IMG/VR virus record: IMGVR_UViG_3300042447_001246
DNA length: 64,000 nt
Direction: 5' to 3' (one strand)
Origin: an uncultured virus (IMG/VR IMGVR_UViG_3300042447_001246)
Taxonomy: Duplodnaviria > Heunggongvirae > Uroviricota > Caudoviricetes
Part shown: piece by piece, positions 6,994-38,485 of the stretch
Numbering within the stretch: position 1 is the stretch's first letter
Layout of the letters: each line of letters opens with the position of its first letter
Program-made: the position numbers and the translations under genes
Notes under the pieces: model-generated
Databases searched by the model: none
What the model was told of the DNA's origin: nothing
The model's input: the letters and a program-made list of their open reading frames with translations, nothing else

Positions 6994-7929
6994 ATGCCAT
7001 TTGTCAATCGCATCGGAAGCGGAGCAACCCGCAAGTTCGGGTTTGGGACAGGGGTTAAACCTGGCGCACCAACGATTGGGACGGCCACACGGGGAGACCA
7101 GCAGGCAAGCGTTGTTTTTACTGAACCCGCAGTACTTGGAACTGGGGCACCTACGTATACGGCTACTTCAAGCCCAGGTGGCTTAACGGCGTCCGGTGCA
7201 AGCTCGCCAGTCGTGGTTACAGGTTTAACAAACGGTACCGAATACACATTTACAGTCACGGCATCCAACTCTTTTGGCTCGTCGACATCTGGGTCTTCAA
7301 ATTCAGTGACCCCAGCAGGAGTTCCAGCTACACCTTCAGCTCCAACGCAATCTGCAGGGAACGCTTCAGTCGCCCTCTCATGGACTGCACCATCGGCCAA
7401 TGGTTCTGCAATTACCGATTACAAGATTTACTACGCAACTTCAGAAGCCGGCACTTACACGCTATTCAGCGACACCGTAAGCACCACTACGTCAGTCACG
7501 GTTACTGGACTAACGAATGGCACAGCCTATTACTTCAAGATTGCCGCAGTAAACTCAGTTGGAGATAGCGCCCTGTCTGCTGCTTCTGCTTCTTCCACTC
7601 CTGCCGCTCCACCGTTCTTCCCGTTCTTCCCTACCTTCGCTCCACCGTTCTTCCCGTTCTTCCCGTTCTTCCCTGACTTCGTCGACCCATGTGCTGGCGT
7701 GAATTGCGCTGCATACGGAGCCCCACCAGGGGGAGTATGGCAATCACAGGGATTTAACACCCAACCTTGGGACCCACACTGCATTAATGCAGGATACCCT
7801 GCAGACCCACCATACTGCTGTAACTTTGGCACCAACACATGTGGGAGCGGTAATTCGTATTGGACCTCGTATATCAGCTCAGATGGTTGTTGTCAATTTA
7901 ACTTGTATGTATACTGTGCTTGCAGTTAA
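6994..7929 (+). CDS. FN3-repeat virion protein with (PFF)n linker and 10-Cys C-terminal tail (paralogue A)
   Basis: Two FN3 domains ('VTGLTNGTEYTFTVTASN', 'VTGLTNGTAYYFKIAAVN'), then PPFFPFFPTFAPPFFPFFPFFPDF, then a Cys-rich tail. Confidence 0.8.
   Translation: MPFVNRIGSGATRKFGFGTGVKPGAPTIGTATRGDQQASVVFTEPAVLGTGAPTYTATSSPGGLTASGASSPVVVTGLTNGTEYTFTVTASNSFGSSTSGSSNSVTPAGVPATPSAPTQSAGNASVALSWTAPSANGSAITDYKIYYATSEAGTYTLFSDTVSTTTSVTVTGLTNGTAYYFKIAAVNSVGDSALSAASASSTPAAPPFFPFFPTFAPPFFPFFPFFPDFVDPCAGVNCAAYGAPPGGVWQSQGFNTQPWDPHCINAGYPADPPYCCNFGTNTCGSGNSYWTSYISSDGCCQFNLYVYCACS
7606..7680 (+). repeat. Coding tandem repeat of CCGTTCTTC (Pro-Phe-Phe) within a short internal duplication
   Basis: gctccaccgttcttcccgttcttccc occurs twice in tandem, with 2 and then 3 copies of the 9-mer. 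Confidence 0.9.
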
Positions 7930-7966
7930 GATGTTCACAACCAACACGCTAAAGGATTGACTATCA

Positions 7967-8200
7967 ATGGAACCAATTAACATTTATCCGCAAGATAACC
8001 CGGACAACTTTCTATGGGTTGCTTTTGTCGTTGATGGAGAGGTTGGGGTCAAAATGCCGTTTCCACTACAAGCAAACCTATTGACAGCGGTTATGTCATC
8101 AAACCCACAGGCTATTGTCATCACTGAAGAAGACAGACTCAATGTTACAACCGGATGGACATATAGTGACGGAGTATTCAGTCCGCCGGCAGGTGAGTGA
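7967..8200 (+). CDS. Small 'VVDGEV' protein, paralogue of 37147-37392
   Basis: Shares VVDGEV...S(N/D)P..I.I...GW.Y..G with 37147-37392. Confidence 0.7.
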   Translation: MEPINIYPQDNPDNFLWVAFVVDGEVGVKMPFPLQANLLTAVMSSNPQAIVITEEDRLNVTTGWTYSDGVFSPPAGE

Positions 8201-8430
8201 GAATGACGCCATGGCAGGAATATAAGAAAAAACTTGGCACGACCAGGCCATGGGACATGGTCAATCCAAAAGCTGAGCATGTTTCGGTAGAGGAGGCTAC
8301 GGCGCGTATGGATATATGCGAATTGTGCCCAAGTCTTCTAGGGGCTACTCATCAATGCAAGGAGTGCGGATGTTTCATGAAGTTGAAGACGAAACTCAAG
8401 AACGCTGAGTGCCCTCTTGGAAAATGGTAA
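8197..8430 (+). CDS. Small Cys-rich, putatively metal-binding protein (DUF6171-like)
   Basis: R..IC..CP.......CKECGCFM..KT......CPLGKW pattern. Confidence 0.65.
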   Translation: MRMTPWQEYKKKLGTTRPWDMVNPKAEHVSVEEATARMDICELCPSLLGATHQCKECGCFMKLKTKLKNAECPLGKW

Positions 8431-8446
8431 TTTCAATCACTAATCT

Positions 8447-9118
8447 TTAATACCTGTTTCTTTCGTAAAAACCTATTTCTTTTACGAAACCAACTACAAC
8501 ATACCTCACTGGTCCATCAGAAACAGTCTTTACCCCATGTTCGTACTCGCTGTTGCCAGGGAAAAATAAAAGGTCTTTTGGATTTGGTTTCAAGGCAATT
8601 TCACGATTCTTGAAGAAAATCTCCCCAGAATTGTAATCATCGTTTATATATAGTATTGAGGCATACCTGATTGACGGGTCAGTATGTTGGTCAACATGTG
8701 ATTTCAATTCCGTGCCGGGTGGCAATCTTTGCACGGTTGATAAACCGCTAAGAGTTAGAGATTGGTCGCATTCAAGTATCATTGATGACAAGCGGCGATG
8801 AATAGAGCGACAAACACCAAGATGCTCAATACCTAGTGTCTTGTCTGAAAAACCATGGGTGATTTCAAATTTTCCCTCTGCAATCAAGTTGTCAATATCG
8901 GTTCTTCCAAACTTGAGCTTGCAAAAATTAACAACACCAGACATGTAGTGGGTTTCCCAATCTTTTTGCGTAGTGTTCTCTATTGCACTAGTTATCGCAT
9001 CTAGCTCTTCCTGTGTTATGAAATTTTTAATCCGAATCAACTCGTCGGTAATTTCTTCAAATTCCAGATTATTCAACTTGAGTTGAAGCAGAAAGTTCTC
9101 AATCATTGGCGACACCAC
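8447..9118 (-). CDS. 2OG-Fe(II) oxygenase, prolyl-4-hydroxylase-like
   Basis: HVD...YINDDYNSGEIFF...HGV...RY: the HxD..H triad plus the 2OG-binding Arg. Confidence 0.85.
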   Translation of the reverse strand: MVSPMIENFLLQLKLNNLEFEEITDELIRIKNFITQEELDAITSAIENTTQKDWETHYMSGVVNFCKLKFGRTDIDNLIAEGKFEITHGFSDKTLGIEHLGVCRSIHRRLSSMILECDQSLTLSGLSTVQRLPPGTELKSHVDQHTDPSIRYASILYINDDYNSGEIFFKNREIALKPNPKDLLFFPGNSEYEHGVKTVSDGPVRYVVVGFVKEIGFYERNRY

Positions 9119-9795
9119 AAACAGTCACAATATTCCTCAACAAAATAACTATGATTCATTTGTTTTTCATTTCTAAGCCTATAATCTGTATCTGGCTTGT
9201 AGTCTCTGCTATGAGTGACATATCGCTGGTCGAATATCTGCGCCACTTTAGACCTGTTAGAAGCAACTGTTTTTCTAAATAAGTGATGTGTAGGTGTTTT
9301 TTTTGGTTTTGCATTATTTTTGAGTCTTTCTTCATTTTCTTCAAAATGTTTTTTTACGTCAGCTAAAAGACTAAGACCTATTTCACTATGTAATTTAAGA
9401 ATAAAATTACAATTGTTGGACCCAGGAAGCCCATTTACTTGGTCCCCATTTGGCAAGGCAACCATTTCTATTGTGTGGTTTAATTCATGAAGTATTGGCT
9501 CTATATTTAATATTGGAATTGAATCCAAATCCGCATACATGCCGCCGTAAAAACAGGTCACAGAATATCTCCAGATATCCGATTGAGTCATTCCTGAATA
9601 ATTGTCATATATTTCGGCCTCAATTGGAGATAGGCATAAAATATTTATTACTTCTTCGCGTCTTTCTTTGGGGTTTTTAAAACAATATTTCCAATCTGGA
9701 TATGTGTTTTTCCATAAGTTGCAGCATTTTTTGAAAGATTCATGAAGTTCTTCAAAGTCGCACTCATATGTTTGAAATATGTTTTTATTCCACAT
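9103..9795 (-). CDS. Glycosyltransferase, GT32/OCH1-like DXD family
   Basis: 'KNIFQTY', 'W...YPDWKY' and 'QSDIWRY....YGGMYADLD'. Confidence 0.8.
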   Translation of the reverse strand: MWNKNIFQTYECDFEELHESFKKCCNLWKNTYPDWKYCFKNPKERREEVINILCLSPIEAEIYDNYSGMTQSDIWRYSVTCFYGGMYADLDSIPILNIEPILHELNHTIEMVALPNGDQVNGLPGSNNCNFILKLHSEIGLSLLADVKKHFEENEERLKNNAKPKKTPTHHLFRKTVASNRSKVAQIFDQRYVTHSRDYKPDTDYRLRNEKQMNHSYFVEEYCDCLWCRQ

Positions 9796-9824: not shown

Positions 9825-10529
9825 TTATTTTGTTGTGTCATTCACATATAATCTTAACACTTTTGCTTCGTGCGAACCTATGGATTCGTTCTTCTCGTTT
9901 ACTGCATCCCTGTACCAGTCGGTGAACTCTCCAGCTCGATTAAGTTTTTGCGCTGCGTACCCATAGCTCGAATTTGCTTTAAGTCTTGTGTTTTCTGGGT
10001 CCGAATAAGTTGTGATATTTATTGACGAATTATTTAAAGCAGTTAGCGATATAGGGATTATTGTGGCAATTGGTGTTCCAGCTATTATTCGTGTCTCCGC
10101 ATTGGCATTTTTTGCTTTTATTGCCAGAGGTATCGGGTGGTCATAAAATGACGTGCTAATAAAGTTGGACATTGTCTCAAAATCATTATTAAAATAATTG
10201 ACTGGATTGATTGTCCAAAGACTTATGTCTTCGGCGGTTCTAAAAATTAGTCCGGTGTTTAAACTTATCGAAGACTGACCCCTGCCAGCATATGCATCAA
10301 TAGGGCTTGTTATTTTTATATGGTCTGGGGTCTGGTCGTTGATTCCGTCCCATGTGAAAACTATGTCTTCTTTACAGGAGAGGCTCCACCCGACCACATT
10401 CGCCTGCGTGACCGGGAAGCACCTATACGCATGGTTCCCTGATGTTTCGTCCATCCAGTCTCTTTTTACGGACATCTGAGAGATTTCAAAAATTGAACCG
10501 TTTGTTTTTTCAACAGAAATTTCAATCAT
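9825..10529 (-). CDS. DUF6065-family protein
   Basis: 'KRDWMD....HAYRCFPVTQANVVGW'. Paralogue of 23360-24061. Confidence 0.7.
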   Translation of the reverse strand: MIEISVEKTNGSIFEISQMSVKRDWMDETSGNHAYRCFPVTQANVVGWSLSCKEDIVFTWDGINDQTPDHIKITSPIDAYAGRGQSSISLNTGLIFRTAEDISLWTINPVNYFNNDFETMSNFISTSFYDHPIPLAIKAKNANAETRIIAGTPIATIIPISLTALNNSSINITTYSDPENTRLKANSSYGYAAQKLNRAGEFTDWYRDAVNEKNESIGSHEAKVLRLYVNDTTK

Positions 10530-11191
10530 TTCTCATCATTCCATTTCCTGTCGTACATATCTGGCGTATGATATTTTTTGCTGTAATCAAGCATGGTTAC
10601 GATTGAGTACTTTGTCCCTGCGGTCACCGGCATGGCTTGATGTGGGTACATGTAGTTTGACGGAAATACATAAAGGTCTCCTGCCTGTGGTTTTATTTTT
10701 AAATTTTGCAGTCTAAAAAATAGCTCTCCGCCTTCGTAATCGTCGTTGACATATCCAACCAACGAGACCGTGCAGTTATATGAGAATCCGTGGTCTTGGT
10801 GTTCTTTGAAGTGCTGACCTGGGCCATACTTAACAAAATTCATTGCTTCCCAATACTTGAGGGACGCTATGTTGTGTTCGGAGCGATAGTCTCTGACGGC
10901 CGGAAGTGCGGAATCATAAATGTCCTGCCAAAGCGATTGTAAATTCAAGCTAACAGTGCTTTTGTCGTGTTCAATATCTGTTTTTTTAAATTTAAAATCA
11001 ACACAGTCTCTGTACTCTGGCACTAATTCTTGGTATCCAACATATGCTGGCTGCCAACTATAACCAGTTGTATCGCCGACTGGTTTTAGGTTCGATTCAA
11101 TTCTATTGATAACATCAAAACTCGATTTGATTATATTTCTGTAACACTTTATGCCATGCCCAAAATCGATTTTTTCTGTCCATGTTTGCAT
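10526..11191 (-). CDS. 2OG-Fe(II) oxygenase (P4H-like, RDC subgroup)
   Basis: HQD, 'YVNDDYEGGELFF', 'FPSNYMYPH' and 'GTKYS'. Start moved to MQTW (11191) to avoid a long overlap. Confidence 0.85.
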   Translation of the reverse strand: MQTWTEKIDFGHGIKCYRNIIKSSFDVINRIESNLKPVGDTTGYSWQPAYVGYQELVPEYRDCVDFKFKKTDIEHDKSTVSLNLQSLWQDIYDSALPAVRDYRSEHNIASLKYWEAMNFVKYGPGQHFKEHQDHGFSYNCTVSLVGYVNDDYEGGELFFRLQNLKIKPQAGDLYVFPSNYMYPHQAMPVTAGTKYSIVTMLDYSKKYHTPDMYDRKWNDEK

Positions 11192-11201
11192 TTGAAATGC
11201 C

Positions 11202-11978
11202 CTACTTGTATTTTCTTCTTGACCAAATTTTGTTTTTGTAAACCCCACCATCGGGCTGGCGGTAAAATCTTGCATTGTTCATGTATTTGGACTGCATTTC
11301 TTCTTGTCCCAACATTTCCACTTTGTGTTCCCAGTCTTCTCTTTTGAACGGGAAAATCTGGAGATAGGGAGTCCCAGCAGGTATTACGCCCTCCCAGCCC
11401 TCAATGAGGAAAAACGGAAAACTTCCCAGTAAATGAACCTTATCTGAGTCAACGATTCCTGTTGTGTTCAAGAATGGAAGGTCAAACCTATTCATCGGCG
11501 TCATAAACAAGGCACTATAACCTTCTGGGAGTTCTATGCCCCAGTCAGCAAACCATGCAAAATGGTGGTCGTAATAACCCTGTGGATGTACGAAATCCGG
11601 CATCGGCGTTCTTGGCGTGCAGAAGTTTTTATACTGACTATTTTCTACCTTGACGTCAATTAAACCTTGAGTGTTTTTGTAAAATGTCAAGTCGCAAGGA
11701 GTTTTAAAAACATATCCGGTTAAAAAGGCGTCCAGAATAGCAGGACAGGCTTTCCATGTCGGAATTTTACCGTAATCGTCTGTTGTTCCTTCTTTTGGAA
11801 ATGGACAAATTTCTTTTGTTGCTTTACGGTATTCCCCGTTTAGATTTTTTTCAAAACTGTCAGCATCTTTATACCATTGTGGAGCGGCGCTTTGTGCTGC
11901 TGATGGGGCGTATTTATTTTCTTTGTCCAGCCATGGTCTATGTGGTCTGAATATTGCGATGTTGTATTGCTCGCTCAT
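11202..11978 (-). CDS. DUF6065-related protein
   Basis: 'TWKACPAILDAFLTGY' and 'WGIELPEGYSALFMTPMNRFDLPF..GIVDSD..IPAGTPYLQIFPFKR'. Distantly similar to the two DUF6065 genes. Confidence 0.5.
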   Translation of the reverse strand: MSEQYNIAIFRPHRPWLDKENKYAPSAAQSAAPQWYKDADSFEKNLNGEYRKATKEICPFPKEGTTDDYGKIPTWKACPAILDAFLTGYVFKTPCDLTFYKNTQGLIDVKVENSQYKNFCTPRTPMPDFVHPQGYYDHHFAWFADWGIELPEGYSALFMTPMNRFDLPFLNTTGIVDSDKVHLLGSFPFFLIEGWEGVIPAGTPYLQIFPFKREDWEHKVEMLGQEEMQSKYMNNARFYRQPDGGVYKNKIWSRRKYK

Positions 11979-12688
11979 TGTTTATGCCCTAGCTTATTTA
12001 TGTCGGTCATGACTACTACACAGTACTTTATGCCAGATTTTATTGGAAGTGACGCATGCTCGTAAATATAATTTGATGGAAAAATTGCAATATCCCCAAC
12101 TTTTGGTTTGTGCACATAACCGTCAAGTCTTGGGAATTCAATTTCTCCACCCTCATAATCGTCGTTGATGTAGATGACGGCAGAAACAGTGCAATTGTAT
12201 GCCGGTCCATGGTCTGCATGTATATTGAAATGCTTACCCTCGCCATCGTATTTTACGAAGTTGAAAGCTTCATAGTAAACAACACTTATACCCCAGTATC
12301 TAGCATAGTCATCAATGCAAAACTTGAGTTTTTCATATATCTCTTGATGAAGGTCCAGAAGCTCGGAGTTGTGCTCGTCTCTTGGTCCTAGATTTTCTTG
12401 CTTGTATTTGAAATCGTAACAGTCTCTTGCTTTTTTTATCGGAATATTAGAATTTGTTACCTGGGCTTCGTTCCAGCTGTATTTTTTGTTCCCGGACAAA
12501 TTTGACTCAAGAATCTTGATGTATCTATTTGAATCTTCAAGCGAAAAAGTATTTTGGTATATGTTTAATCCTAGTGCTGGATTTTGGGCTGTAATTGTTT
12601 CACTGGCAGCTCGATGGATTCTATTTGACGCAGTCTCTGACCTGTCTTTTGTGAACCATGGAATTGCGTTTTCATCATAAATACTCAT
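11975..12688 (-). CDS. 2OG-Fe(II) oxygenase (P4H-like, RDC subgroup)
   Basis: HAD, 'YINDDYEGGEIEF', 'FPSNYIYEH' and 'GIKY'. Confidence 0.85.
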   Translation of the reverse strand: MSIYDENAIPWFTKDRSETASNRIHRAASETITAQNPALGLNIYQNTFSLEDSNRYIKILESNLSGNKKYSWNEAQVTNSNIPIKKARDCYDFKYKQENLGPRDEHNSELLDLHQEIYEKLKFCIDDYARYWGISVVYYEAFNFVKYDGEGKHFNIHADHGPAYNCTVSAVIYINDDYEGGEIEFPRLDGYVHKPKVGDIAIFPSNYIYEHASLPIKSGIKYCVVVMTDINKLGHKQ

Positions 12689-12728: not shown

Positions 12729-13028
12729 ATGGAATTAATAGGAACATGGTTCATAACCGCAACCTCGCCCCTGGGAAAAGAGACATATAACCTGCGTTTG
12801 AATGACGATGGTTCTGGCTCAATTTCACATGACAGGGGAATCGTGGAATTTTCAGATGCTCTAATCAGCACCTCTGACGAGTCCATGACAGTGAAGATTT
12901 GCGGCCACACAGACATACCAATGAGCGTCGACTTTCTGTGTCAATTTGAGTCAGTAGGCAAATCTCTTGCTGGATTTGTAGAAATCGGCAAATACGCAAA
13001 CATCGAAATAAACGGGGTAAAGATATGA
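12729..13028 (+). CDS. Hypothetical small beta-rich protein
   Basis: 99-aa ORF ('GTWFITATSPLG') heading a plus-strand operon. Overlaps the next gene by ATGA. Confidence 0.6.
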   Translation: MELIGTWFITATSPLGKETYNLRLNDDGSGSISHDRGIVEFSDALISTSDESMTVKICGHTDIPMSVDFLCQFESVGKSLAGFVEIGKYANIEINGVKI

Positions 13029-13648
13029 GCATCAAGTCAGTTTTTGATATGCCGATAAAATCTGTAGATGGAACGTTTGATGTTATGGACTCGGTTCGTG
13101 GCAAGGTTTGCTTATTCACGAACATCGTCACCAAGACTGGCTACACCCCAAAATGTAGCCCCATCTGGTCTTACGCAAGAGCTGCCAGACAATTATGGGA
13201 GCTACAGCAGCTTCATGAAATGTTTTCAGACAAAGGTTTTAGCGTTGTGGGATTTCCGTGCAATCAGTTTGGCCAAATGGAACCATCCGACAATGAGGAT
13301 ATAAGTCAATTCATATCAGAGGCCTATCCATTTGTGACTTTCCCAATTACAGAAAAAATTGAAGTAAACGGTCCGGGCGAACATAAAATATGGAGTTTCC
13401 TAAAAGGTGACACCGTTCGTGCTTTTGATGACAGCAAGGCAGATGGTTCAGATAAAGCTGCATCCGGGCAGAACCTAGCTGGACAAGCGATAATGCGCAT
13501 ACCTCACAACTATGAGAAATTCATGGTTAGCAGAGAAGGTCAGCAAGTTGCGAGATTGAACTGGGCCGACCTCCCACTTGCCGAACAGCCGCTTGCAGCG
13601 GGCTCCTCATGGACCGTTATAGAGGCAGTGAAGTCTCTTGTAGGTTGA
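13025..13648 (+). CDS. Glutathione peroxidase-like protein with atypical active site
   Basis: 'RGKVCLFTN', 'GFSVVGFPCNQFGQMEP', 'VTFPITEKIEVNG' and 'NYEKFMV'. Confidence 0.85.
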   Translation: MSIKSVFDMPIKSVDGTFDVMDSVRGKVCLFTNIVTKTGYTPKCSPIWSYARAARQLWELQQLHEMFSDKGFSVVGFPCNQFGQMEPSDNEDISQFISEAYPFVTFPITEKIEVNGPGEHKIWSFLKGDTVRAFDDSKADGSDKAASGQNLAGQAIMRIPHNYEKFMVSREGQQVARLNWADLPLAEQPLAAGSSWTVIEAVKSLVG

Positions 13649-13650
13649 TT

Positions 13651-14649
13651 ATGAAAATGCCTTCGACCCCGACCATTGGGGCCAATGAACTTAAAGAGAT
13701 AAGTGAATTAGTTGTCGAGGACCTTGGCAGTGGAATAGTCGTTTTTAGAAACGCTTTTTCCGTTGAGGACTTTATTCTCAGACATATAGACGATTGTGCT
13801 GCAGAGGCACATAAGAGCAGATGGTCGTATGTAACCGATGAGGATGGGGTTGAATACGGGATAAACGAGGACGGCTTTAGATACCGCCTAGAAGACGTCC
13901 CAAATGCCCCTGTAAGGCTCCTGGAGCCCGTTACAGAGGCGACAAGCCCCAATGTGGTCGAATACTTCACCTATCTTGAGGACGCAATCTACAAGTGTCT
14001 AATACGCTATACGGACATGTTTCCGCTGATAGTCGGAAGCCTCTGGTGGAGGACCAGGGGTCACATACTCAGATATGACGGTGGGGGCATTCTTGGGTGG
14101 CATCAAGACAATGACACGAACTACAAAGTGACCCAGGGTGTCAGGTATATGCCAAGGGGGCAGGTGGCGCTCCGACAGACCGCTGGAGCCCTTGCGTATT
14201 TCAACGACTGCGTTGACACTAAGGAAGAACTTGATGGCACCAACTTTTCTGGCGGCCATCTTAAGTTTGCATACCTCGGGATTGACTACAAGCCCAAAAA
14301 GGGGGACATCATTATGTTCCCTACAAACTACATATGCGCTCACGGTGTAACAAAGATGGATGGTGGCACAAGATATGCATATCTCTCGTTCTTCGGACAA
14401 GGCGGAACAGATAATGCTGCAAACATAAGAATAAAGGAAAAAGACGCGAGTATTCAATGGTGTGAGCCAGTTTGGTTCGACAACATCTATGACGACTACG
14501 AGTTTTATTGCAAGTCTGAATACTCAATCTGGTCAAAACCAACCCCAGGTTTAGAGCTTGGCTCAAACCCTGTATTCCAAAATAGATGCGTCACTCAATA
14601 CGGCGATACGCACACTGCGCTGGAGGTGAACCAAGTTGAAACGATATGA
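13651..14649 (+). CDS. 2OG-Fe(II) oxygenase (LGGG/WW subgroup)
   Basis: HQD, 'FPTNYICAHGV' and 'GTRYAYL'. Start taken at MKMPS. Confidence 0.8.
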   Translation: MKMPSTPTIGANELKEISELVVEDLGSGIVVFRNAFSVEDFILRHIDDCAAEAHKSRWSYVTDEDGVEYGINEDGFRYRLEDVPNAPVRLLEPVTEATSPNVVEYFTYLEDAIYKCLIRYTDMFPLIVGSLWWRTRGHILRYDGGGILGWHQDNDTNYKVTQGVRYMPRGQVALRQTAGALAYFNDCVDTKEELDGTNFSGGHLKFAYLGIDYKPKKGDIIMFPTNYICAHGVTKMDGGTRYAYLSFFGQGGTDNAANIRIKEKDASIQWCEPVWFDNIYDDYEFYCKSEYSIWSKPTPGLELGSNPVFQNRCVTQYGDTHTALEVNQVETI

Positions 14650-18623: not shown

Positions 18624-18632
18624 GTCAGTATG

Positions 18633-21454: not shown

Positions 21455-21455
21455 T

Positions 21456-23068: not shown

Positions 23069-23077
23069 GTTGGAAGC

Positions 23078-24792: not shown

Positions 24793-24796
24793 GAAA

Positions 24797-30114: not shown

Positions 30115-30116
30115 GA

Positions 30117-32882
30117 TTAAGCCTGTGCTTCCGTCCATGAGAGGCGGGCAAACACTGTCGCAGAAGCAGAACCGATGTTTGTAGCAACAATGTGCAATGT
30201 GTCTGGACCGTCTGGGTAAATGCCTGTTGTTGTTATCGTCGTGCCTCCGCCAAGAATTGAGTTACCAAGGTCTCGAACGTCTCCGAGGTCAATCTGCACA
30301 CCACCTGTACCACCCACAAAGAAACCACCAGTTACTTCGCCACCGCTAACCGTTGTTGATGTTCCTTGGTAGTCTGCAATTTGGGCCAAACTTGATGTAA
30401 CCGCTGTTGGCTTTGCCCATGTACGAGAGTTTGATGGAACACCATTCAGGATAGCCTGAACAAGAACGTTTGATGTAGAAGAAGTAGTCGTTACGTCAAG
30501 GTTTCTTAGCACCAACTGCATTCTGTTAACAAGCTCTCTTTCACCGAAGAACGCCGAGGTTCCGTTGTCTGCTGATGGAGAGACGCGAATAGCAATCAGG
30601 GTTCGTGTTGCTCCTGCCGAGATAGAAATACCGGTTGTCTGACCATAAGTAAACACGAGCGACTTGTCGTCGTCGAATCTTCCGTCCATGATTGCCGATG
30701 TACCCCAGTGAGATATTGAAGGCGCATATGTTGGGAATGCAAGCTCAACTCCAACTGGATTGGATGCTGAGTATGTAAATGCAAGAGCTGCGCTTGTTCC
30801 CATCGGGATTGCGTTTACTGTTGGGTTAGCCCCAGTCACAGCAGCACTTAACTTGATATTGGTGCCATCAATCTGTTGAATGAATGTTCCGTCTGGTACG
30901 TCTGTTCCAGTGACTCTTTGACCGACTTGCAGTCCAGAGTTTGATGCGACAGTTCCATCGTTTGCCCCAGCAGCAATTGTTAAGGCGAGGGAAGCGTTTC
31001 CTGTTTTTTGTCTTGTAAGACCAGTAAATGTTGTTGCAGTTTTCCCAGTGTAGTTGATGTATTCGTAACCAGTTGCCGTATTGAATACACACAATGTTCC
31101 AATGCTTGGGAATCCTGTTGTGCTTCCAACATTCATCGTTGTTGTTTCGGAGTCAGACAAAGTTCCAGTTAGCTGCGTATGTGGCGGCTGGCTGAGAGAT
31201 TCGTATCGCGCTGGAAGGTTTCCCGAACGCATGTACGCTTCGGCATTTGTGTTGTTGTTGATTATCTTGTGACAGTAAGTAACTTTTCCGTCTTTTGCAC
31301 GCATACCCCAACGGATGAAACCAGCACCATACCAAGAATAGTCGATGTAGAACATCTGCATTCTAGAAAGGTCAACGTTGTAACCAGATGCTCCAGTTCC
31401 ATCAAACTTGTCTAGATTCCATTCAGCTTGTGGATACTTTGAGTCCACTGTTTTGGAAACTGAAACCATGGTTGAAGTAGAACCACGCCATGCAGGGCTG
31501 ATTGTCAATTCAGTGTTGCTTGCAATGTCGGTAATTCTGTACGACTGACCTCGAGCAACGATGTAGTCACCGATTTCAAGCTGACCAGCATATCTCGTTG
31601 GGAACGCTGCGTTTGTTTGAGTCACGGTGCATGAGCCATTTGTGAATGTTGACTTTCCAGAAATCTGGAATGTTGATGAACGTTTTACGGCCCACAACGT
31701 TTGCCCGTCAAATTCAAAGAACACTCCGTTTTGGTCGTCAAACAAACCAATTCTGTTTACGTTTCCATACCAACCTGCAACGGTAATGTAATAAGGACCA
31801 GAAGCAAGAACGTTCGTTCCAGTCGAAGTTGCTGGAGTATACGTAAATGTATTGTACCCAGTAATCGTATAAACGGTTGTTGTACCGTTAAAGATTGCCT
31901 CATTAGCACCAAAAATGGTTATTGTCGAGCCTGGGTAGAGGTTATGCTTTTCCTTGGTTTGCACTGTAACCAAGTTTGTTGACGTGCTGTATGACAACTG
32001 GTCCAACTGAAGGTCTGGTTTGAGCAGTGTTCCAGATGACATCTGGATGCCTTTTCCTGACTGATAGCGGAAATAACGGCGTGTTTGACGTGCGGCCATT
32101 TCGTAATTAGATGTTCCGTTGTTTGAGAAAATAACACCGCCGTCAAAAGGTCTGTGTAGAAAGTTTCCTGATGGGGCTGTATAAATCGCCGCGCTTGTTG
32201 CTGTAAGAGTCCCGGTTGGTGCAACTGGGGCATGATAAACAAACTGTGTTGCGCTAATTATTCTTGAAACAAAGTTTGCGCCGTTTGGTGGGTTTGTGCC
32301 TGAAGTAGTAATTCCAGTTACTGCCACTTCGTTACCGATTGAAAGACCGTGCGGAATTGTCGTGGTCACTGTAACTGCAGTGCCAGAATACGAAACTGTT
32401 GGAGCTGCGCCTATTTTTGCGTTTGTAAAAATAACACCAGTAAAAATTGAAGTCTTATTTGCATCAAAAATTGCTGTCAATGTTCCGGTGTTTACCGCTT
32501 TACCTGTGTACGTAAATGATGTATTTGTCGTAACAGATTCAATTAGGTACGCACCGTTGGCAATAGATAGCTGTGTATCTCTGACGGTAATAGGCGTTCC
32601 AACAGCAAGCCCAGTTGTATCAGTCAGTGCAACCGTGACTGTTCTTGATGAAGTACTCATCGTAATGCCAGTAATCGACGATATAAAACTTGCCGAGTCA
32701 TAAATAAACGGTCTATTTCCAACTGTCGTAAGGTTTTCCCACTTTGAAATTTGTGTTCCATACTCAAAGTCGGTGTCAATCAACGACTGTGGCTGTGAGA
32801 CTCTTAACTTTTGGACAGGGTCAAAAAGTACTTCTTCTGGTGTAATCGGCGTTAAGCCAGGTGGTATTTGGTTAAGACCCAT
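30117..32882 (-). CDS. Large virion structural protein
   Basis: 921 aa, Thr/Ser/Gly-rich. 'KLRVSQPQSLIDTDFEYG', 'RQTRRYFRYQSGK' and 'IDYSWYGAG' are motifs I recall from aquatic myophage structural proteins. Confidence 0.65.
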   Translation of the reverse strand: MGLNQIPPGLTPITPEEVLFDPVQKLRVSQPQSLIDTDFEYGTQISKWENLTTVGNRPFIYDSASFISSITGITMSTSSRTVTVALTDTTGLAVGTPITVRDTQLSIANGAYLIESVTTNTSFTYTGKAVNTGTLTAIFDANKTSIFTGVIFTNAKIGAAPTVSYSGTAVTVTTTIPHGLSIGNEVAVTGITTSGTNPPNGANFVSRIISATQFVYHAPVAPTGTLTATSAAIYTAPSGNFLHRPFDGGVIFSNNGTSNYEMAARQTRRYFRYQSGKGIQMSSGTLLKPDLQLDQLSYSTSTNLVTVQTKEKHNLYPGSTITIFGANEAIFNGTTTVYTITGYNTFTYTPATSTGTNVLASGPYYITVAGWYGNVNRIGLFDDQNGVFFEFDGQTLWAVKRSSTFQISGKSTFTNGSCTVTQTNAAFPTRYAGQLEIGDYIVARGQSYRITDIASNTELTISPAWRGSTSTMVSVSKTVDSKYPQAEWNLDKFDGTGASGYNVDLSRMQMFYIDYSWYGAGFIRWGMRAKDGKVTYCHKIINNNTNAEAYMRSGNLPARYESLSQPPHTQLTGTLSDSETTTMNVGSTTGFPSIGTLCVFNTATGYEYINYTGKTATTFTGLTRQKTGNASLALTIAAGANDGTVASNSGLQVGQRVTGTDVPDGTFIQQIDGTNIKLSAAVTGANPTVNAIPMGTSAALAFTYSASNPVGVELAFPTYAPSISHWGTSAIMDGRFDDDKSLVFTYGQTTGISISAGATRTLIAIRVSPSADNGTSAFFGERELVNRMQLVLRNLDVTTTSSTSNVLVQAILNGVPSNSRTWAKPTAVTSSLAQIADYQGTSTTVSGGEVTGGFFVGGTGGVQIDLGDVRDLGNSILGGGTTITTTGIYPDGPDTLHIVATNIGSASATVFARLSWTEAQA

Positions 32883-36431: not shown

Positions 36432-36674
36432 TCAGTCTTTCACTACCTCTAGTCTTTCGTTTTCCATTAGCTTTTTTGAAAATGTATTCAGTCCGTGAAC
36501 ATAGCCGAGTGGTTCTGGAATGTTTAATTCAATGCAAACATCTACGAGCTTTCCGTCCCTAATGTCAGTCCAGGCATCAATCATTGCTTGCGCCCCAGAT
36601 TTGCCACTGATGTGGTATTTATCTGAAATAAGCTGAACAAGCTCATCATCGTAATTCCATGTTTTTAAAGTCAT
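36432..36674 (-). CDS. Hypothetical protein
   Basis: 80-aa ORF coupled by ATGA to the GNAT gene. Confidence 0.55.
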   Translation of the reverse strand: MTLKTWNYDDELVQLISDKYHISGKSGAQAMIDAWTDIRDGKLVDVCIELNIPEPLGYVHGLNTFSKKLMENERLEVVKD

Positions 36675-37138
36675 TGTGGATTTTCTTCTGCTCGCTTCTG
36701 CTCAATGTATTTTTGAGCCCATCTTGCTCCGGCTGCAGTGCTTTTTACACCCAATAGACCCTCATTGAAGTCGTATTCATATCCGCGCCCGTTCAGAAAC
36801 TCTTCTCGCGAATAATCCAAGACCTTTGAAGCTATTCCCATATTTTGGTAATCTGGGTGGACATTGAGCATGAACGGCTTTTGCACCTCGTCTTTTATGT
36901 ACGAACCGTAAACACACAGAAGCAAGCCATCTTCTCCGCGATATAAATCTATGTTTACATCGACCGAATTCTCGTGGCCGAAAAGGTGTGGGGCGGCTGC
37001 TGGAATTGTCTGTTTAGAAAAACCTGGCTCTCCAAATTCTCCAAACCTATACTCCAAAAAAGACCATTCGGCAAATGTGAAATCCTGAACGTTGGTATCT
37101 AGATTTTCCCATGGCTTATCTACGTTTGCATCGCTCAT
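36671..37138 (-). CDS. GNAT-family N-acetyltransferase-like protein
   Basis: Motif A: 'LNVHPDYQNMGIASKVL'. Confidence 0.7.
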   Translation of the reverse strand: MSDANVDKPWENLDTNVQDFTFAEWSFLEYRFGEFGEPGFSKQTIPAAAPHLFGHENSVDVNIDLYRGEDGLLLCVYGSYIKDEVQKPFMLNVHPDYQNMGIASKVLDYSREEFLNGRGYEYDFNEGLLGVKSTAAGARWAQKYIEQKRAEENPQ

Positions 37139-37146
37139 AACTGTGA

Positions 37147-37392
37147 CTAATCCTCCAATGGCGCTCGTGGGGCGCCGTTTTCATACACCCATCCACCTCG
37201 GATGTGGTCGTAGTATTCACTATCTATTGGTATCTCTATTATCTTTGGGTCACTTGCTAGGGCTGTAACAATATATTCATAGCCGCCCTGCTGGTCTATC
37301 CATTCAGGATTTGGAGCCCAAGTAAAGGCAACTTCTCCGTCAACGACAACTGAGAATTTTCTTAAACGTTTTGCAGTTTTTTGTTGTTCCAT
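37147..37392 (-). CDS. Small 'VVDGEV' protein, paralogue of 7967-8200
   Basis: 'FSVVVDGEV...ALASDPKIIEI...GWVYENG'. Confidence 0.7.
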   Translation of the reverse strand: MEQQKTAKRLRKFSVVVDGEVAFTWAPNPEWIDQQGGYEYIVTALASDPKIIEIPIDSEYYDHIRGGWVYENGAPRAPLED

Positions 37393-37444
37393 AGTGTTTA
37401 GATTCTAGCGGTATCTAATGCACTACCGAATACCGATTCACACT

Positions 37445-38485
37445 CTAGATACATATAAAACCGTCCTTAAACCCGCCGCAACCAGCTGGAGGGCAACATG
37501 GTCCAATTCCTGGACAGTCAGGGCATGCGAAGGTCGGGAAGAACGGGAAGAACGGGAAGAACGGGAAGAACGGGAAGAACGGCGGCGCTGGGTTGGTGGT
37601 TTCTGATATGTAGATAGCGTCAGAGTTTGCCCACCCTGGTTTTGAAACATATACATATGTGTATCTAGTTGTGTCATAACCAAGACCAAACCATCCATGA
37701 CAACTTCCAGATTGGTCGTTTGGCGCGTCAACATTGAATCCGTAGTAATTGTACGTAGCGGTTCCACCGTTGCCAGGTTGCTCTAGGCCATCAGTGAAGT
37801 AGTTGGTGTAACACCATGGAATTGAACTTTCCGTCTCTGCAATATCTCCAATAATCGGAGTTGGAACCTTGCCGAACAACGGAGTGATTGAGCTAGACGC
37901 AGTCGAGTAGCTTCCAGTCCCAATTCCGTTTATTGCATTCACTCTGAATACATATGCAGTTCCGTTTGTCAAACCGGTAACCGTCACGGAAGTTGCTGTC
38001 GACGCGGCACGGCTGAACGTCGTCCATGTCGAACCACTGTCTGACGAGTATTGAACTGTGTAGTCAGTAATCGAAGAGCCAACAGAGGCTGGCGCAATCC
38101 AGGCTACAGAAGCCGTTGTATTTCCATAAGTGCTTGGAAGAGTTACTGTTGGTGTTGCTGGAGCGGAAGGTGCAGAACCAAGAACAAGTGGACTAGAAGA
38201 TGCTGACGCCACTGATTCAGTAGCACTTGTTGACTCAATCGCAACAGCAGAGAATGTGTAAGTTTCTCCCGGGGTGAGTCCGGCCAGCATGGATACCGTT
38301 GTGGAACTAGTTGTTGCAGTTACTCCATTGCTCGCAGTTACGCGATATGTAACTATTCCAGACTTGCCCTTATATCCAGTATGGGTGATTGTTATGTCTG
38401 CTGTTCCGCCAGCACCTACAACACTAGTTACTTCGCTTGGTGGGTCGATAAACTTCCCACCACTTGCCTGATTGCCAGGAATCAT
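37445..38485 (-). CDS. FN3-repeat virion protein with (PFF)5 linker and 6-Cys tail (paralogue C)
   Basis: FN3 'ITDYTVQYS...TSVTVTGLTNGTAYVFRVNAIN'. Ends PAPPFFPFFPFFPFFPFFPTFACPDCPGIGPCCPPAGCGGFKDGFICI. Confidence 0.8.
   Translation of the reverse strand: MIPGNQASGGKFIDPPSEVTSVVGAGGTADITITHTGYKGKSGIVTYRVTASNGVTATTSSTTVSMLAGLTPGETYTFSAVAIESTSATESVASASSSPLVLGSAPSAPATPTVTLPSTYGNTTASVAWIAPASVGSSITDYTVQYSSDSGSTWTTFSRAASTATSVTVTGLTNGTAYVFRVNAINGIGTGSYSTASSSITPLFGKVPTPIIGDIAETESSIPWCYTNYFTDGLEQPGNGGTATYNYYGFNVDAPNDQSGSCHGWFGLGYDTTRYTYVYVSKPGWANSDAIYISETTNPAPPFFPFFPFFPFFPFFPTFACPDCPGIGPCCPPAGCGGFKDGFICI
37535..37579 (-). repeat. Perfect 9-bp tandem repeat x5 (CGGGAAGAA on +, encodes FFP on -)
   Basis: Five identical copies read directly from the sequence. 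Confidence 0.95.

What the first reader, a model, noticed from the sequence alone, without database searches (positions are those of the whole stretch)
6994..38485. Candidate phage-encoded tailoring system: Pro/Phe-repeat FN3 tip proteins bracketing about 20 kb of hydroxylases, sulfo-, glycosyl- and acetyltransferases
Seen in sequence: three paralogous FN3 proteins (6994-7929 +, 28093-29334 -, 37445-38485 -) each end in a Pro/Phe tandem repeat. The (PPFF)8 gene is followed 9 nt later, on the same strand, by a P4H-like 2OG oxygenase, two sulfotransferases and a long run of further oxygenases. Paralogue A faces a convergent block with a GT32 and more oxygenases. Paralogue C is followed by a GNAT. 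About 15 2OG-Fe(II) enzymes lie between A and B. Established: P4H-type enzymes hydroxylate Pro in repetitive peptides (collagen, extensins), and Hyp is a platform for glycosylation; AspH-type enzymes hydroxylate Asp/Asn in disulfide-rich domains. Inference: the repeats and Cys tails are substrates, or enzyme-recruiting tags, for a RiPP-like hydroxylate/glycosylate/sulfate/acetylate pathway that decorates virion fibre tips. I know of no description of this substrate-plus-enzyme organisation. The alternative is that the enzymes act on host envelope lipids or glycans.
Basis: partly seen in the sequence, partly recalled or inferred. Interest (0 to 1): 0.88.

Follow-up and report, generated by a model that had tools for sequence, protein, structure and literature searches.

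The report
Phage Pro-Phe fibre tails beside hydroxylases
An uncultured lake phage encodes three fibre-region proteins that end in proline-phenylalanine repeats, next to about 15 proline-hydroxylase-like enzymes, and because repeat and enzymes sit together in most related phage fragments, the repeat is a testable but unproven candidate target for a common and long-unexplained class of phage enzymes.

Summary
Three FN3 proteins (6994-7929 +, 28093-29334 -, 37445-38485 -) end in Pro/Phe arrays. 15 2OG-Fe(II) oxygenase genes lie between the first two.

The island is an expanded copy of a conserved module of lake phages: a fibre with a conserved C-terminal domain, then an FN3 protein with a Pro/Phe array, then prolyl-hydroxylase-type oxygenases plus dUTPase-fold DUF6065 proteins.

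- Forward test: 89 of 100 IMG/VR loci with such an array and at least 6 kb downstream carry oxygenases.
- Reverse test: 47 of 52 DUF6065-anchored loci have an array gene upstream on the same strand, and 51 of 52 have one somewhere in the locus.
- Control: 1 of 75 prokaryote loci fetched by the same DNA pattern has such enzymes, and it is the only one with a real array.

The enzymes keep the catalytic motif, and a model of one matches solved prolyl hydroxylases.

Most likely (about 0.5) the arrays are hydroxylated. No chemistry is shown. 85 of 87 loci fall in one gene-sharing network, so inherited gene order is not excluded.

Sulfation, glycosylation, acetylation and modification of the Cys tails rest on weak or rarely conserved genes.

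Earlier notes of this scan describe the same module on other DNA many times. Tandem phage dioxygenase arrays with a dUTPase-fold protein are in print (PMC2938197). My searches found no printed link to Pro/Phe arrays.

The parts
6010..6987 (+). Fibre-like structural gene directly upstream of array gene A. Its C-terminus differs from the conserved fibre C-terminal domain.
   Evidence: PHROG tail-fibre and virion-structural hits; C-terminus printed.
6994..7929 (+). Array protein A: two FN3 domains, a PFF/PPFF array, then a Cys-rich tail (10 Cys in the last 100 residues). It is convergent with the core cassette.
   Evidence: tail-type PHROG hits through the FN3 domains.
8447..9118 (-). Core-cassette 2OG-Fe(II) oxygenase, the last gene of the conserved cassette.
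   Evidence: Pfam 2OG-FeII_Oxy_3 E 2.5e-9; homologues in 127 fetched loci; phrog_61.
9103..9795 (-). GT32-like glycosyltransferase, an accessory gene.
   Evidence: Pfam Gly_transf_sug E 9e-10; homologues in only 6 loci.
9825..10529 (-). DUF6065 protein with a dUTPase-like fold and an invariant Cys37; part of the core cassette.
   Evidence: Pfam DUF6065 E 1.7e-24; alignment A1; model with pLDDT 81; the top Foldseek hits listed are all dUTPases, E 9e-5 to about 2e-3.
10526..11275 (-). Core-cassette oxygenase of prolyl-hydroxylase type.
   Evidence: Pfam E 5e-15; PDB sequence hits to B. anthracis P4H and to LH3; HxD...H invariant; model with pLDDT 87; the top Foldseek hits are prolyl hydroxylases.
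11202..11978 (-). DUF6065-like paralogue in the core cassette; function unknown.
   Evidence: phrog_7084 E 9e-33, the same PHROG as the DUF6065 gene 9825-10529; homologues in 87 loci; no Pfam hit and no significant PDB match.
11975..12688 (-). Core-cassette oxygenase. In most relatives this is the first gene after the array gene.
   Evidence: Pfam E 5e-10; synteny; PDB hits to P4H, LH3 and mimivirus L230.
12729..16142 (+). Insert on the + strand: an unknown 99-aa ORF, a glutathione peroxidase (13025-13648), two oxygenases (13609-14649, 14636-15607) and an NAD-binding protein (15600-16142).
   Evidence: Pfam.
16139..19941 (-). Five further 2OG-Fe(II) oxygenase genes: 16139-16879, 16876-17766, 17763-18623, 18633-19283 (Oxy_5 type) and 19270-19941 (below the Pfam cut-off).
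   Evidence: Pfam; own HMM.
19938..21514 (-). Fatty-acid desaturase (19938-20762) and Asp/Asn beta-hydroxylase-like gene (20759-21514); accessory genes.
   Evidence: Pfam E 1.5e-24 and 6e-23; homologues in 0 loci and 1 locus.
21456..23314 (-). Unannotated ORFs: 21456-22265, 22207-22527, 22517-22825 and 23078-23314 on the minus strand, and 22849-23100 on the plus strand.
   Evidence: No Pfam hit for any of the five; no PHROG hit for the three searched, 21456-22265, 22207-22527 and 22517-22825.
23360..24061 (-). Second DUF6065 gene.
   Evidence: Pfam DUF6065 E 2.5e-43.
24058..25960 (-). Three oxygenases: 24058-24792, 24797-25330 and 25331-25960 (the last below the Pfam cut-off).
   Evidence: Pfam; homologues in 124-128 loci.
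25979..27497 (-). Two sulfotransferase-like genes (25979-26788, 26730-27497); weak assignment.
   Evidence: phrog_3347 E 2e-6 and 6e-6 only; no Pfam hit; no PDB match for 25979-26788, the one searched.
27469..28083 (-). P4H-like oxygenase starting 9 nt after array gene B.
   Evidence: Pfam E 3.8e-8; PDB hits to B. anthracis P4H, P3H1 and PBCV-1 P4H.
28093..29334 (-). Array protein B: four FN3-like units, then (PPYF)2(PPFF)8, with no cap domain.
   Evidence: repeat number differs among close relatives.
29338..30138 (-). Fibre protein with the conserved C-terminal domain (...ATPG.KLRAQWS.ATLIKR...W..IGDLSA), directly upstream of B.
   Evidence: homologues in 100 loci.
36671..37138 (-). GNAT-like ORF; weak and not conserved.
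   Evidence: Pfam E 4e-4, below the cut-off; homologue in 1 locus; no PHROG hit.
37445..38485 (-). Array protein C: two FN3 domains, a middle domain, a PFF array, then a Cys-rich tail (7 Cys in the last 100 residues).
38482..41541 (-). Large fibre protein with the same conserved C-terminal domain, directly upstream of C.
   Evidence: homologues in 92 loci.

Best explanation
The region is an expanded copy of a conserved module of uncultured lake phages, probably phages of actinobacteria. The module has three parts in a fixed order. First comes a tail-fibre protein with a conserved C-terminal domain. Next comes a small FN3 protein whose C-terminal half is a polymer of Pro-Phe-Phe and Pro-Pro-Phe-Phe units. 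Last comes a battery of prolyl-hydroxylase-type 2OG-Fe(II) oxygenases together with two dUTPase-fold DUF6065-type proteins.

The most likely working is this. During late infection the oxygenases hydroxylate prolines of the Pro/Phe arrays of the phage's own fibre-associated proteins. The different paralogues may handle different positions or residues. This would turn a very hydrophobic tract into a hydroxylated, stiffer or more soluble rod or adhesive at the fibre.

Shown: the anatomy, the enzyme class with an intact catalytic motif, and the conserved adjacency. Inferred: that the array is the substrate, which residues are modified, and what the modification achieves. The extra genes of this window (GT32-like, sulfotransferase-like, desaturase, AspH-like, peroxidases) are lineage-specific additions of uncertain relation to the arrays.
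For: 1. Forward test. Of 155 fetched loci of at least 4 kb, 133 hold an array ORF of at least 100 aa. Of the 100 with at least 6 kb downstream of such an ORF, 89 have at least one oxygenase and 80 a DUF6065-like gene (HMMs built from A2 and A1, E<1e-3).
2. Reverse test. Of the 80 loci kept when anchoring on DUF6065 (40-100% identity), 52 have at least 3 kb upstream. 47 of these have a Pro/Phe-rich ORF upstream on the same strand within 6 kb, with a median gap of 1.7 kb, and 51 of 52 have one somewhere in the locus. The five exceptions are the window's closest relatives (79-100% identity), which have the expanded layout.
3. Control. Among 75 prokaryote-genome loci of at least 4 kb (0.98 Mb) fetched with the same DNA pattern, only one (L359) has a real long array, and it alone has oxygenases (8) and DUF6065 (1).
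4. The pairing persists while everything around it changes. The repeat type varies (PFF/PPFF versus (A/S)PP(G/S)FF). The C-terminal cap varies (none, Cys-rich, or Hint-like). The repeat number varies, and so does the length of the upstream fibre.
5. Co-occurrence without adjacency. Of 5 array-bearing contigs with no oxygenase within 10 kb, 3 have PF13640 genes elsewhere on the record. The other 2 records are estimated 26-31% complete.
6. Enzyme class. HxD...H is invariant in 21 of 21 aligned sequences, and K or R stands 10 residues after the second His in all 21, as I read from the alignment. The best PDB sequence hits are B. anthracis P4H, lysyl hydroxylase LH3, mimivirus L230, P3H1 and PBCV-1 P4H. 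The model (pLDDT 87) has prolyl hydroxylases as its top Foldseek hits: Pseudomonas P4H, algal P4H with a (Ser-Pro)5 peptide, PHD2, PBCV-1 vCPH and human C-P4H-II, at E 9e-12 to about 1e-9.
7. Array gene B and the next oxygenase are 9 nt apart on one strand.
8. All three arrays and all P4H-type oxygenases of the 172.5-kb genome lie in this window.
Against: - No chemistry is shown for this or any related phage.
- The loci are not independent. 85 of 87 loci with at least 4 ORFs outside the module fall into one network of shared flanking proteins, so the adjacency may simply be inherited gene order within one broad lineage.
- The same enzyme class occurs without Pro/Phe arrays. In cyanophages S-H9-1 and Syn9 the oxygenases also follow the fibre genes, but no array is present.
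- Six to fifteen different oxygenases are more than a polymer of two residue types seems to need.
- 11 of 100 array loci have no oxygenase within 10 kb.
- In the closest known case, chlorovirus PBCV-1, the reference list of the Chloroviruses review (PMC7019647) cites an unpublished amino-acid analysis that detected no hydroxyproline in purified particles.
- Arrays A and C in the window are not co-oriented with any oxygenase.
Confidence: 0.5

Rival explanations
1. The oxygenase battery is an auxiliary metabolic or secondary-metabolite island acting on small molecules or host metabolism: 2OG levels, lipids, or halogenated or hydroxylated metabolites. It sits after the fibre genes only because that spot is a hyperplastic insertion site. 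On this reading the neighbouring Pro/Phe array is inherited gene order.
For: - Published readings of phage 2OG oxygenases are of this kind: modulation of 2OG or DNA repair (PMC3037559, passages), AMGs (PMC11561400, passages), and secondary metabolites for the Syn9 array (PMC2938197, passages).
- The window's enzymes fall in the same phrog_61.
- The island has lower G+C than the structural genes (0.34-0.43 against 0.45-0.50).
- It carries a desaturase, peroxidases and an NAD-binding protein.
- The loci form one gene-sharing network.
- Cyanophage arrays lack Pro/Phe proteins.
Against: - The adjacency survives changes of repeat type, cap, fibre and island content.
- 3 of 5 contigs where the two are not adjacent still carry both.
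- The nearest solved relatives act on proteins, not small molecules.
- No scaffold-building enzyme (NRPS, PKS or ATP-grasp) was found by Pfam in the island.
Confidence: 0.2
2. The enzymes modify phage structural proteins, but not the Pro/Phe tract itself. Candidate targets are the fibre's conserved C-terminal domain, the FN3 domains, the Cys-rich caps or the capsid. On this reading the tract is a linker or a docking site that recruits the enzymes.
For: - The upstream fibre's C-terminal domain is as conserved a partner as the array.
- A further AspH-like gene lies right beside the major capsid gene elsewhere in the genome.
- Syn9 and S-H9-1 place oxygenases behind fibre genes that have no Pro/Phe tract.
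- Many paralogues fit many targets.
Against: - The array is the one invariant feature of an otherwise variable neighbouring protein.
- The enzyme fold is closest to proline hydroxylases, and the arrays are about one third to one half proline.
- The Cys tails lack the AspH consensus, and caps are absent from 75 of 191 array proteins.
Confidence: 0.15
3. The Pro/Phe tract is an unmodified hydrophobic spacer or membrane- or envelope-contacting element of the fibre. The oxygenases act on host envelope components during infection. The two are linked only through a shared role in adsorption or exit.
For:
- The tract is extremely hydrophobic, and its length varies between close relatives, as with a contingency element.
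- A desaturase and a GT32-like gene are present.
Against: - The envelope-directed accessory genes are rare among relatives (0-6 loci), while the P4H-type core is common.
- By established knowledge of this enzyme class, 2OG oxygenases need intracellular cofactors.
- No signal of export was looked for.
Confidence: 0.1

Closest known systems
Tandem dioxygenase array of Synechococcus phage Syn9 (gp41-gp54), described by Iyer, Abhiman, de Souza and Aravind, Nucleic Acids Res 2010 (PMC2938197; passages read)
   Same: [quoted passage not shown]
- Syn9 gp43 matches my DUF6065 HMM (E 7e-8).
- The array lies directly downstream of the tail-fibre gene cluster on the same strand.
- The same paper proposed, for bacterial operons, that co-encoded collagen-like or tail-collar proteins are hydroxylated and then sulfated.
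   Different: - Syn9 has tryptophan halogenases and a JmjC-type member, and no Pro/Phe-array protein. Its fibre cluster holds Gly-rich proteins instead.
- The authors read the phage arrays as secondary-metabolite synthesis.
- The window's enzymes are only distantly related to cyanophage oxygenases (about 23-42% identity over partial lengths).
Chlorovirus PBCV-1 prolyl 4-hydroxylase (vCPH, PDB 5c5t) and the virus's own proline-rich repeat proteins (Eriksson et al. 1999, seen only as a reference-list entry in PMC7019647; the details of its peptide substrates are recalled)
   Same: A virus encodes both a P4H-type enzyme and proteins with proline-rich repeats. 5c5t is among the best sequence and fold matches of the window's enzymes.
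   Different: - It is a eukaryotic virus with one enzyme rather than 6-15.
- Its repeats are charged Pro-rich units rather than Pro/Phe (recalled).
- No gene adjacency was reported (recalled).
- An unpublished analysis cited in the review's reference list found no hydroxyproline in particles.
Collagen-type protein hydroxylases of bacteria and giant viruses (B. anthracis P4H 3itq/5hv0; mimivirus L230 6ax6)
   Same: These are the best PDB sequence matches. They hydroxylate Pro or Lys in repetitive structural proteins.
   Different: Their substrates are Gly-X-Y collagen-like repeats, and the window has none. Similarity is low (E 1e-5 to 2e-4, over the C-terminal core only).
[quoted passage not shown]
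   Same: The same tripeptide unit. The paper reports helical, collagen-mimicking fibres held by an aromatic zipper, with a Young's modulus of 60-90 GPa for Hyp-Phe-Phe. Adding the hydroxyl group changes the material's properties.
   Different: These are free synthetic tripeptides in crystals and fibres, not a genetically encoded polymer. Nothing shows that the phage tract folds in this way.

Membership tests
Prolyl-4-hydroxylase-type 2OG-Fe(II) oxygenases (Pfam 2OG-FeII_Oxy_3) | Pfam score above the curated cut-off | tested here: met
   13 of the 15 oxygenase-type genes between A and B score above their family's cut-off. 19270-19941 (24.2 bits) and 25331-25960 (24.4 bits) fall below 27 bits.
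Prolyl-4-hydroxylase-type 2OG-Fe(II) oxygenases (Pfam 2OG-FeII_Oxy_3) | Iron-binding HxD...H triad, and a basic residue about 10 positions after the second His that binds 2OG | tested here: met
   H159, D161 and H212 are invariant in 21 of 21 sequences of A2. K or R at +10 is present in all 21, as I read from the alignment. The rule for the +10 residue is recalled.
Prolyl-4-hydroxylase-type 2OG-Fe(II) oxygenases (Pfam 2OG-FeII_Oxy_3) | Fold closest to solved prolyl hydroxylases | tested here: met
   For the model of 10526-11275 (pLDDT 87), the top Foldseek hits are nearly all prolyl hydroxylases (4iw3, 3gze, 5l9b, 5c5t, 7zsc), with E 9e-12 to about 1e-9 and TM 0.5-0.7. Only one of the 15 enzymes was modelled.
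Prolyl-4-hydroxylase-type 2OG-Fe(II) oxygenases (Pfam 2OG-FeII_Oxy_3) | Hydroxylation of peptidyl proline | not testable with these tools
   This needs enzymology or mass spectrometry.
DUF6065 / dUTPase-fold protein of phage dioxygenase arrays | Pfam DUF6065 above the cut-off, a dUTPase-like fold, and a conserved cysteine | tested here: met
   Pfam E 1.7e-24 and 2.5e-43. C37 is invariant in 20 of 20 sequences. The top Foldseek hits listed are all dUTPases, at about 10% identity, with TM 0.35-0.43 on the query and 0.55-0.74 on the target. The fold match covers only part of the 234-aa model.
DUF6065 / dUTPase-fold protein of phage dioxygenase arrays | dUTPase catalytic motifs or activity | not tested
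   The motifs were not compared. A profile of A1 finds no PDB chain by sequence.
RiPP biosynthetic cluster | Precursor with leader and core, a recognition element, and a releasing peptidase | tested here: not met
   Pfam at E<=0.01 finds no peptidase and no RRE/PqqD-like domain in 7984-28083. The arrays sit at the end of folded FN3 structural proteins, not on short precursors.
Sulfotransferase (25979-26788, 26730-27497) | Recognisable sulfotransferase domain with a PAPS-binding site | tested here: inconclusive
   Only phrog_3347 at E 2e-6 and 6e-6, over the N-terminal 90-110 residues. No Pfam hit. No PDB match for 25979-26788, the one searched.
GNAT acetyltransferase (36671-37138) | Pfam GNAT domain above the cut-off | tested here: not met
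   Acetyltransf_7 scores 21.1 bits against a cut-off of 27. No PHROG hit.
AspH-type hydroxylation of EGF-like Cys-rich domains | Substrate consensus C-x-[DN]-x4-[FY]-x-C in the Cys-rich tails | tested here: not met
   There is no match in A, B or C. The consensus is recalled. The AspH-like enzyme itself is present (Pfam E 6e-23).
Fibronectin type III domain proteins | Pfam fn3 above the cut-off | tested here: met
   A E 5e-20, B E 1e-17, C E 8e-19.
Hint/intein-like C-terminal caps (in relatives only) | Pfam Hint domain above the cut-off | tested here: inconclusive
   Hint_2 appears in 2 of the 16 proteins scanned, at E 0.003 and 0.0008. Both are below the cut-off and cover only the first 28 positions. 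The sequence pattern C..(D/E)T.I ... HN(K/R) is seen in 21 of 191 array ORFs.

The most novel reading that the evidence does not exclude
The phage makes a genetically encoded Hyp-Phe-Phe-type polymer. The hydroxylase battery would convert (PFF)n and (PPFF)n tracts of up to several hundred residues into a hydroxylated, aromatic-zipper, collagen-like stiff rod or adhesive at the fibre tip. This would be a new class of natural structural biopolymer. It would also be the first assigned protein substrate for the abundant phrog_61 '2OG-Fe(II) oxygenase AMGs' of aquatic phages. The dUTPase-fold DUF6065 proteins would act as substrate-handling partners.
Probability: 0.2. Interest if true: 0.9.

Novelty: new variant of a known kind. 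Interest (0 to 1): 0.72.

Why it matters
2OG-Fe(II) oxygenases are among the most often noted 'auxiliary' genes of aquatic phages. Their role has stayed open since the first cyanophage genomes, with proposals ranging from control of 2OG levels and DNA repair to metabolite synthesis (PMC3037559, PMC11561400, PMC2938197).

Here the same enzyme class (phrog_61) is tied by a strong and reciprocal gene-neighbourhood signal to one peculiar partner: a fibre-associated protein ending in a proline-phenylalanine polymer. That gives a concrete substrate hypothesis, which a co-expression and mass-spectrometry experiment could settle.

If it holds:
- part of what is counted as phage 'metabolic' gene content would be virion-protein tailoring;
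- a new natural Pro/Phe (possibly Hyp/Phe) polymer would be added to structural biology.

If it fails, the finding is still a well-defined conserved module of lake phages.

Tried and rejected
- Complex prediction with oxygenase 10526-11275 (alignment A2) and the PPFF tail of B (residues 352-413) gave no verdict (score 0.01 and 0.00 against a mark of 0.32; controls not run). It counts neither for nor against binding.
- Near-identity DNA search and a protein search with B in deposited phage records found nothing. The low-complexity filter and withheld own records may explain this.
- tblastn with the second DUF6065 gene found no deposited phage.
- Baseplate J gave only distant Gordonia phage hits.
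- PDB sequence searches with 25979-26788, with 11202-11978 and with the DUF6065 profile gave nothing significant.
- Promoter and terminator scans of 6000-45800 found no more sites than shuffled sequence (36 against 44.8; 18 against 16.9; 17 against 29.6; 22 against 18.6). They say nothing about operon structure.
- Test for movement between unrelated phages: after removing everything inside the module span, 85 of 87 loci still join one network at 2 or more shared proteins, although 1,885 of 3,741 pairs share none directly. A cruder version gave a single component of 144 loci. I therefore do not claim independent transfers.
- RNA: six lake metatranscriptome runs hold 35-45% of the sampled words of 22001-31000. 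Contigs of the four runs laid (X19-X22), mostly at least 99% identical, cover scattered parts of 9501-29500, including B at 28490-29500. These are contigs, and carry-over of DNA is not excluded, so expression and co-transcription are not shown.
- The 18 lake-water DNA runs that hold the whole stretch are all flagged as possible sources. They are not independent support.
- Literature searches: 'DUF6065' found 0 papers; 'PPFF' with 'repeat' and 'phage' found 2 irrelevant papers; two searches on prolyl hydroxylase, phage and tail fibre found nothing on phage Pro/Phe arrays.
- My first regular expression, (P{1,2}[FY]F) three or more times, missed the hexapeptide variant and wrongly suggested that 14 of 43 DUF6065 loci lack arrays. 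It was replaced by a composition window.

Full report
**What is there**

The window is bases 26107-90106 of a single 172.5-kb contig of an uncultured phage.
- A (6994-7929 +) has two FN3 domains, a short PFF/PPFF array and a tail with 10 Cys in its last 100 residues.
- B (28093-29334 -) has four FN3-like units and ends in (PPYF)2(PPFF)8.
- C (37445-38485 -) has two FN3 domains, a middle domain, a PFF array and a tail with 7 Cys in its last 100 residues.

The three are paralogues through their FN3 parts (A to B 48% identity, E 5e-28; A to C 39%, E 4e-28). They hit tail-type PHROGs.

Between A and B, Pfam finds 15 oxygenase-type genes, 13 of them above the curated cut-off. It also finds two DUF6065 genes, a GT32-like gene, a fatty-acid desaturase, an AspH-like gene, a glutathione peroxidase and an NAD-binding protein.

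The two 'sulfotransferases' rest only on weak PHROG hits (E 2e-6 and 6e-6). The 'GNAT' scores below the Pfam cut-off.

In the whole genome these are the only three long Pro/Phe arrays, and all P4H-type oxygenases found by my HMM lie in this island. The island has lower G+C (0.34-0.43) than the flanking structural genes (0.45-0.50).

**The phage**

The rest of the genome encodes a portal, a T4-type terminase, an HK97-type capsid protein, a class II ribonucleotide reductase and a WhiB regulator. It also holds two TauD dioxygenases, and a further AspH-like gene beside the capsid gene.
- WhiB is taken in the literature as a mark of phages of actinobacteria (PMC10611076, passage).
- The baseplate J protein finds only Gordonia phages, and distantly.
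- Runs that hold the stretch are lake-water metagenomes, but the 18 DNA runs are all flagged as possible sources.

I read the phage as a lake phage, probably of actinobacteria. The host is an inference. No deposited phage is close.

**The module is conserved**

227 of the 241 loci hold an in-frame array.

Window proteins searched against the ORFs of these loci showed which genes travel with the arrays:
- most of the P4H-type oxygenases: 104-129 loci
- DUF6065: 102-104 loci
- the unknown gene 11202-11978: 87 loci
- the fibre genes 29338-30138, 33210-36230 and 38482-41541: 83-100 loci
- the accessory genes: GT32-like 6, sulfotransferase-like 8 and 7, AspH-like 1, GNAT-like 1, desaturase 0.

Gene maps of nine loci show one order. 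A fibre gene comes first, then the FN3-array gene. Some 30-150 nt later on the same strand come homologues of 11975-12688, 11202-11978, 10526-11275, 9825-10529, two or three further oxygenases, and 8447-9118.

In the window this core cassette (8447-12688) lies about 15 kb from B, behind extra genes, and faces A. So the window holds an expanded version of the module.

The core enzymes are very conserved (E 1e-110 to 1e-137). The array and fibre genes are much less so (E 1e-20 to 1e-35).

**Counts**
- With HMMs built from alignments A2 and A1, 133 of 155 pattern-fetched loci of at least 4 kb have an array ORF of at least 100 aa. 110 of those have an oxygenase and 92 a DUF6065-like gene.
- Of the 100 with at least 6 kb downstream, 89 have an oxygenase and 80 a DUF6065-like gene.
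- Three of the 11 without are second array genes on contigs whose cassette lies beyond the fetched stretch. Eight are other, mostly larger, proteins.
- Five of these contigs were searched whole. Three have PF13640 genes elsewhere on the record, and the other two records are estimated 26-31% complete.
- In the reverse direction, DUF6065 fetched 80 loci at 40-100% identity.
- My first pattern missed a divergent clade that uses (A/S)PP(G/S)FF hexapeptides.
- With a composition window, 47 of 52 loci with at least 3 kb upstream have an array ORF upstream on the same strand within 6 kb, and 51 of 52 have one somewhere in the locus. The five exceptions are the window's closest relatives.
The matches are short runs in spurious or Gly-rich ORFs. 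Of 75 loci of at least 4 kb, only L359, a contig end in a lake MAG, has a long array. It alone has oxygenases (8) and DUF6065 (1).

**Limits of this evidence**

The loci are not independent. After leaving out everything inside the module span, 85 of 87 loci still join one network through at least two shared proteins.

Earlier notes of this scan say that tract and enzymes travel 'between unrelated phages'. My test does not reproduce that. What I can say is that the pairing persists within a broad, diverse lineage while the following all vary:
- the repeat type;
- the repeat number (8 to more than 20 units among close relatives of B);
- the cap (75 none or short, 59 Cys-rich, 21 Hint-like, 36 other, of 191 distinct array ORFs);
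- the length of the upstream fibre;
- the accessory genes.

**The enzymes**

In an alignment of 21 oxygenases (six window paralogues and 15 relatives), HxD and the distal His are invariant. A Lys or Arg stands 10 residues after the distal His in all 21.

The best PDB sequence matches are B. anthracis P4H, lysyl hydroxylase LH3, mimivirus L230, P3H1 and PBCV-1 P4H, at E 1e-5 to 2e-4 for the best.

A model of 10526-11275 (pLDDT 87) has as its top Foldseek matches almost only protein prolyl hydroxylases: Pseudomonas P4H with EF-Tu, algal P4H with a (Ser-Pro)5 peptide, PHD2, PBCV-1 vCPH and human C-P4H-II.

These enzymes belong to phrog_61, the family counted as an AMG in marine viromes (PMC11561400).

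The DUF6065 model (pLDDT 81) resembles dUTPases, and Cys37 is invariant. 11202-11978 shares phrog_7084 with it.

**Comparison with what is known**

[quoted passage not shown] They read the array as metabolite synthesis. For bacterial operons they proposed that co-encoded collagen-like or tail-collar proteins are hydroxylated and then sulfated.

I checked Syn9 directly:
- The array follows the fibre cluster on the same strand.
- gp43 matches my DUF6065 HMM (E 7e-8).
- There is no Pro/Phe array. Gly-rich proteins lie in the fibre cluster instead.

S-H9-1 likewise has two oxygenases right after its short-tail-fibre genes and no array.

So the array-plus-battery is a variant of a known kind of phage gene array. 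What is new is the Pro/Phe partner, for which my four literature searches found no description.

The closest worked case is PBCV-1 P4H with that virus's proline-rich repeats. A review's reference list cites an unpublished analysis that found no hydroxyproline in PBCV-1 particles, which is a caution.

[quoted passage not shown] This is an analogy only.

**Reading and rivals**

I put about 0.5 on the arrays being substrates of the oxygenases, with proline hydroxylation as the likeliest step. The rivals are:
- 0.2: a metabolite or host-metabolism role, with the adjacency inherited.
- 0.15: modification of other virion proteins, with the tract serving as a linker or dock.
- 0.1: an unmodified tract, with enzymes acting on the host envelope.

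The Cys tails lack the AspH consensus.

The complex prediction gave no verdict. The RNA contigs do not show transcription.

**Earlier notes of this scan**

The same module was noted and followed up on other DNA many times. One of those cases is a 172-kb phage with 15 oxygenases between two array genes. I reached the substrate reading before reading these notes. They gave me the lead to the Iyer paper, which I then checked. They are not independent evidence.

Noticed in passing
relatives: e.g. L128:3762-5138, L025:9326-10648, L058:9365-10840, L188:3043-5565: In many relatives the Pro/Phe array is followed by a domain of about 150-190 aa. The domain starts C..(D/E)T.I and ends ...HN(K/R), like a Hint/intein domain placed to cut or ligate exactly at the end of the array. 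Pfam Hint_2 hits are weak and below the cut-off (2 of the 16 proteins scanned).
   Followed up: partly
window 29338-30138 and 38482-41541; relatives: Fibre genes of very different length (about 200 to 1,800 aa) directly upstream of array genes share one C-terminal domain (...ATPG.KLR..WS.ATL.KR...W...GDL.A). It may be the attachment partner of the array protein.
   Followed up: partly
relatives of B (L157, L145, L125, L148, L185, L166 and others): The number of PPFF/PPYF units differs among close relatives (about 10 to more than 20). This suggests frequent in-frame expansion and contraction of the 12-nt DNA repeat.
   Followed up: partly
genome G000:C1:150382-150915 (outside the window), beside the capsid gene at 150992-152368: A further Asp/Asn beta-hydroxylase-like gene lies directly next to the major capsid protein gene. 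Two TauD-type dioxygenases and a carbamoyltransferase lie elsewhere in the genome.
   Followed up: no
window 13025-13648 (+) and 50732-51619 (-); L145:9048-9986: There are two glutathione-peroxidase-like genes. In relative L145, a homologue of 50732-51619 sits directly between the array gene and the first oxygenase. It may guard against peroxide from uncoupled oxygenase turnover.
   Followed up: no
window 45638-50739 (+): A separate block holds a glycosyltransferase (phrog_7162), a HAD hydrolase fused to a nucleotidyltransferase-like part, a SAM methyltransferase and an unknown 424-aa protein. It lies next to the holin gene and could be a sugar-modification unit.
   Followed up: no
window 22300-23520: In all four lake RNA-library runs laid, the deepest contigs over 9501-29500 lie on the small unannotated ORFs 22207-23314 and the start of the second DUF6065 gene. 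These are contigs only, and the tool warns that depth cannot rank genes.
   Followed up: no
PHROG labels; Syn9 annotation: The window's oxygenases also match PHROGs labelled 'ferrochelatase' (phrog_3531) and 'DNA endonuclease V' (phrog_274), through the oxygenase core. The Syn9 genes that Iyer et al. count as dioxygenases carry these same labels, and 'minor coat protein', in RefSeq. The labels look like mis-annotated 2OG oxygenases.
   Followed up: partly
window 11202-11978; The DUF6065-like paralogue has distant homologues (25-36% identity) in 49 records of tailed viruses of haloarchaea (HF1, HF2, the HRTV and HCTV series), all annotated as hypothetical.
   Followed up: no
window 62374-62997 (+) and 51701-55708 (+): A 207-aa ORF has a weak proteasome-subunit hit (E 1.6e-5). 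A 1,335-aa protein has a weak right-handed beta-helix hit.
   Followed up: no
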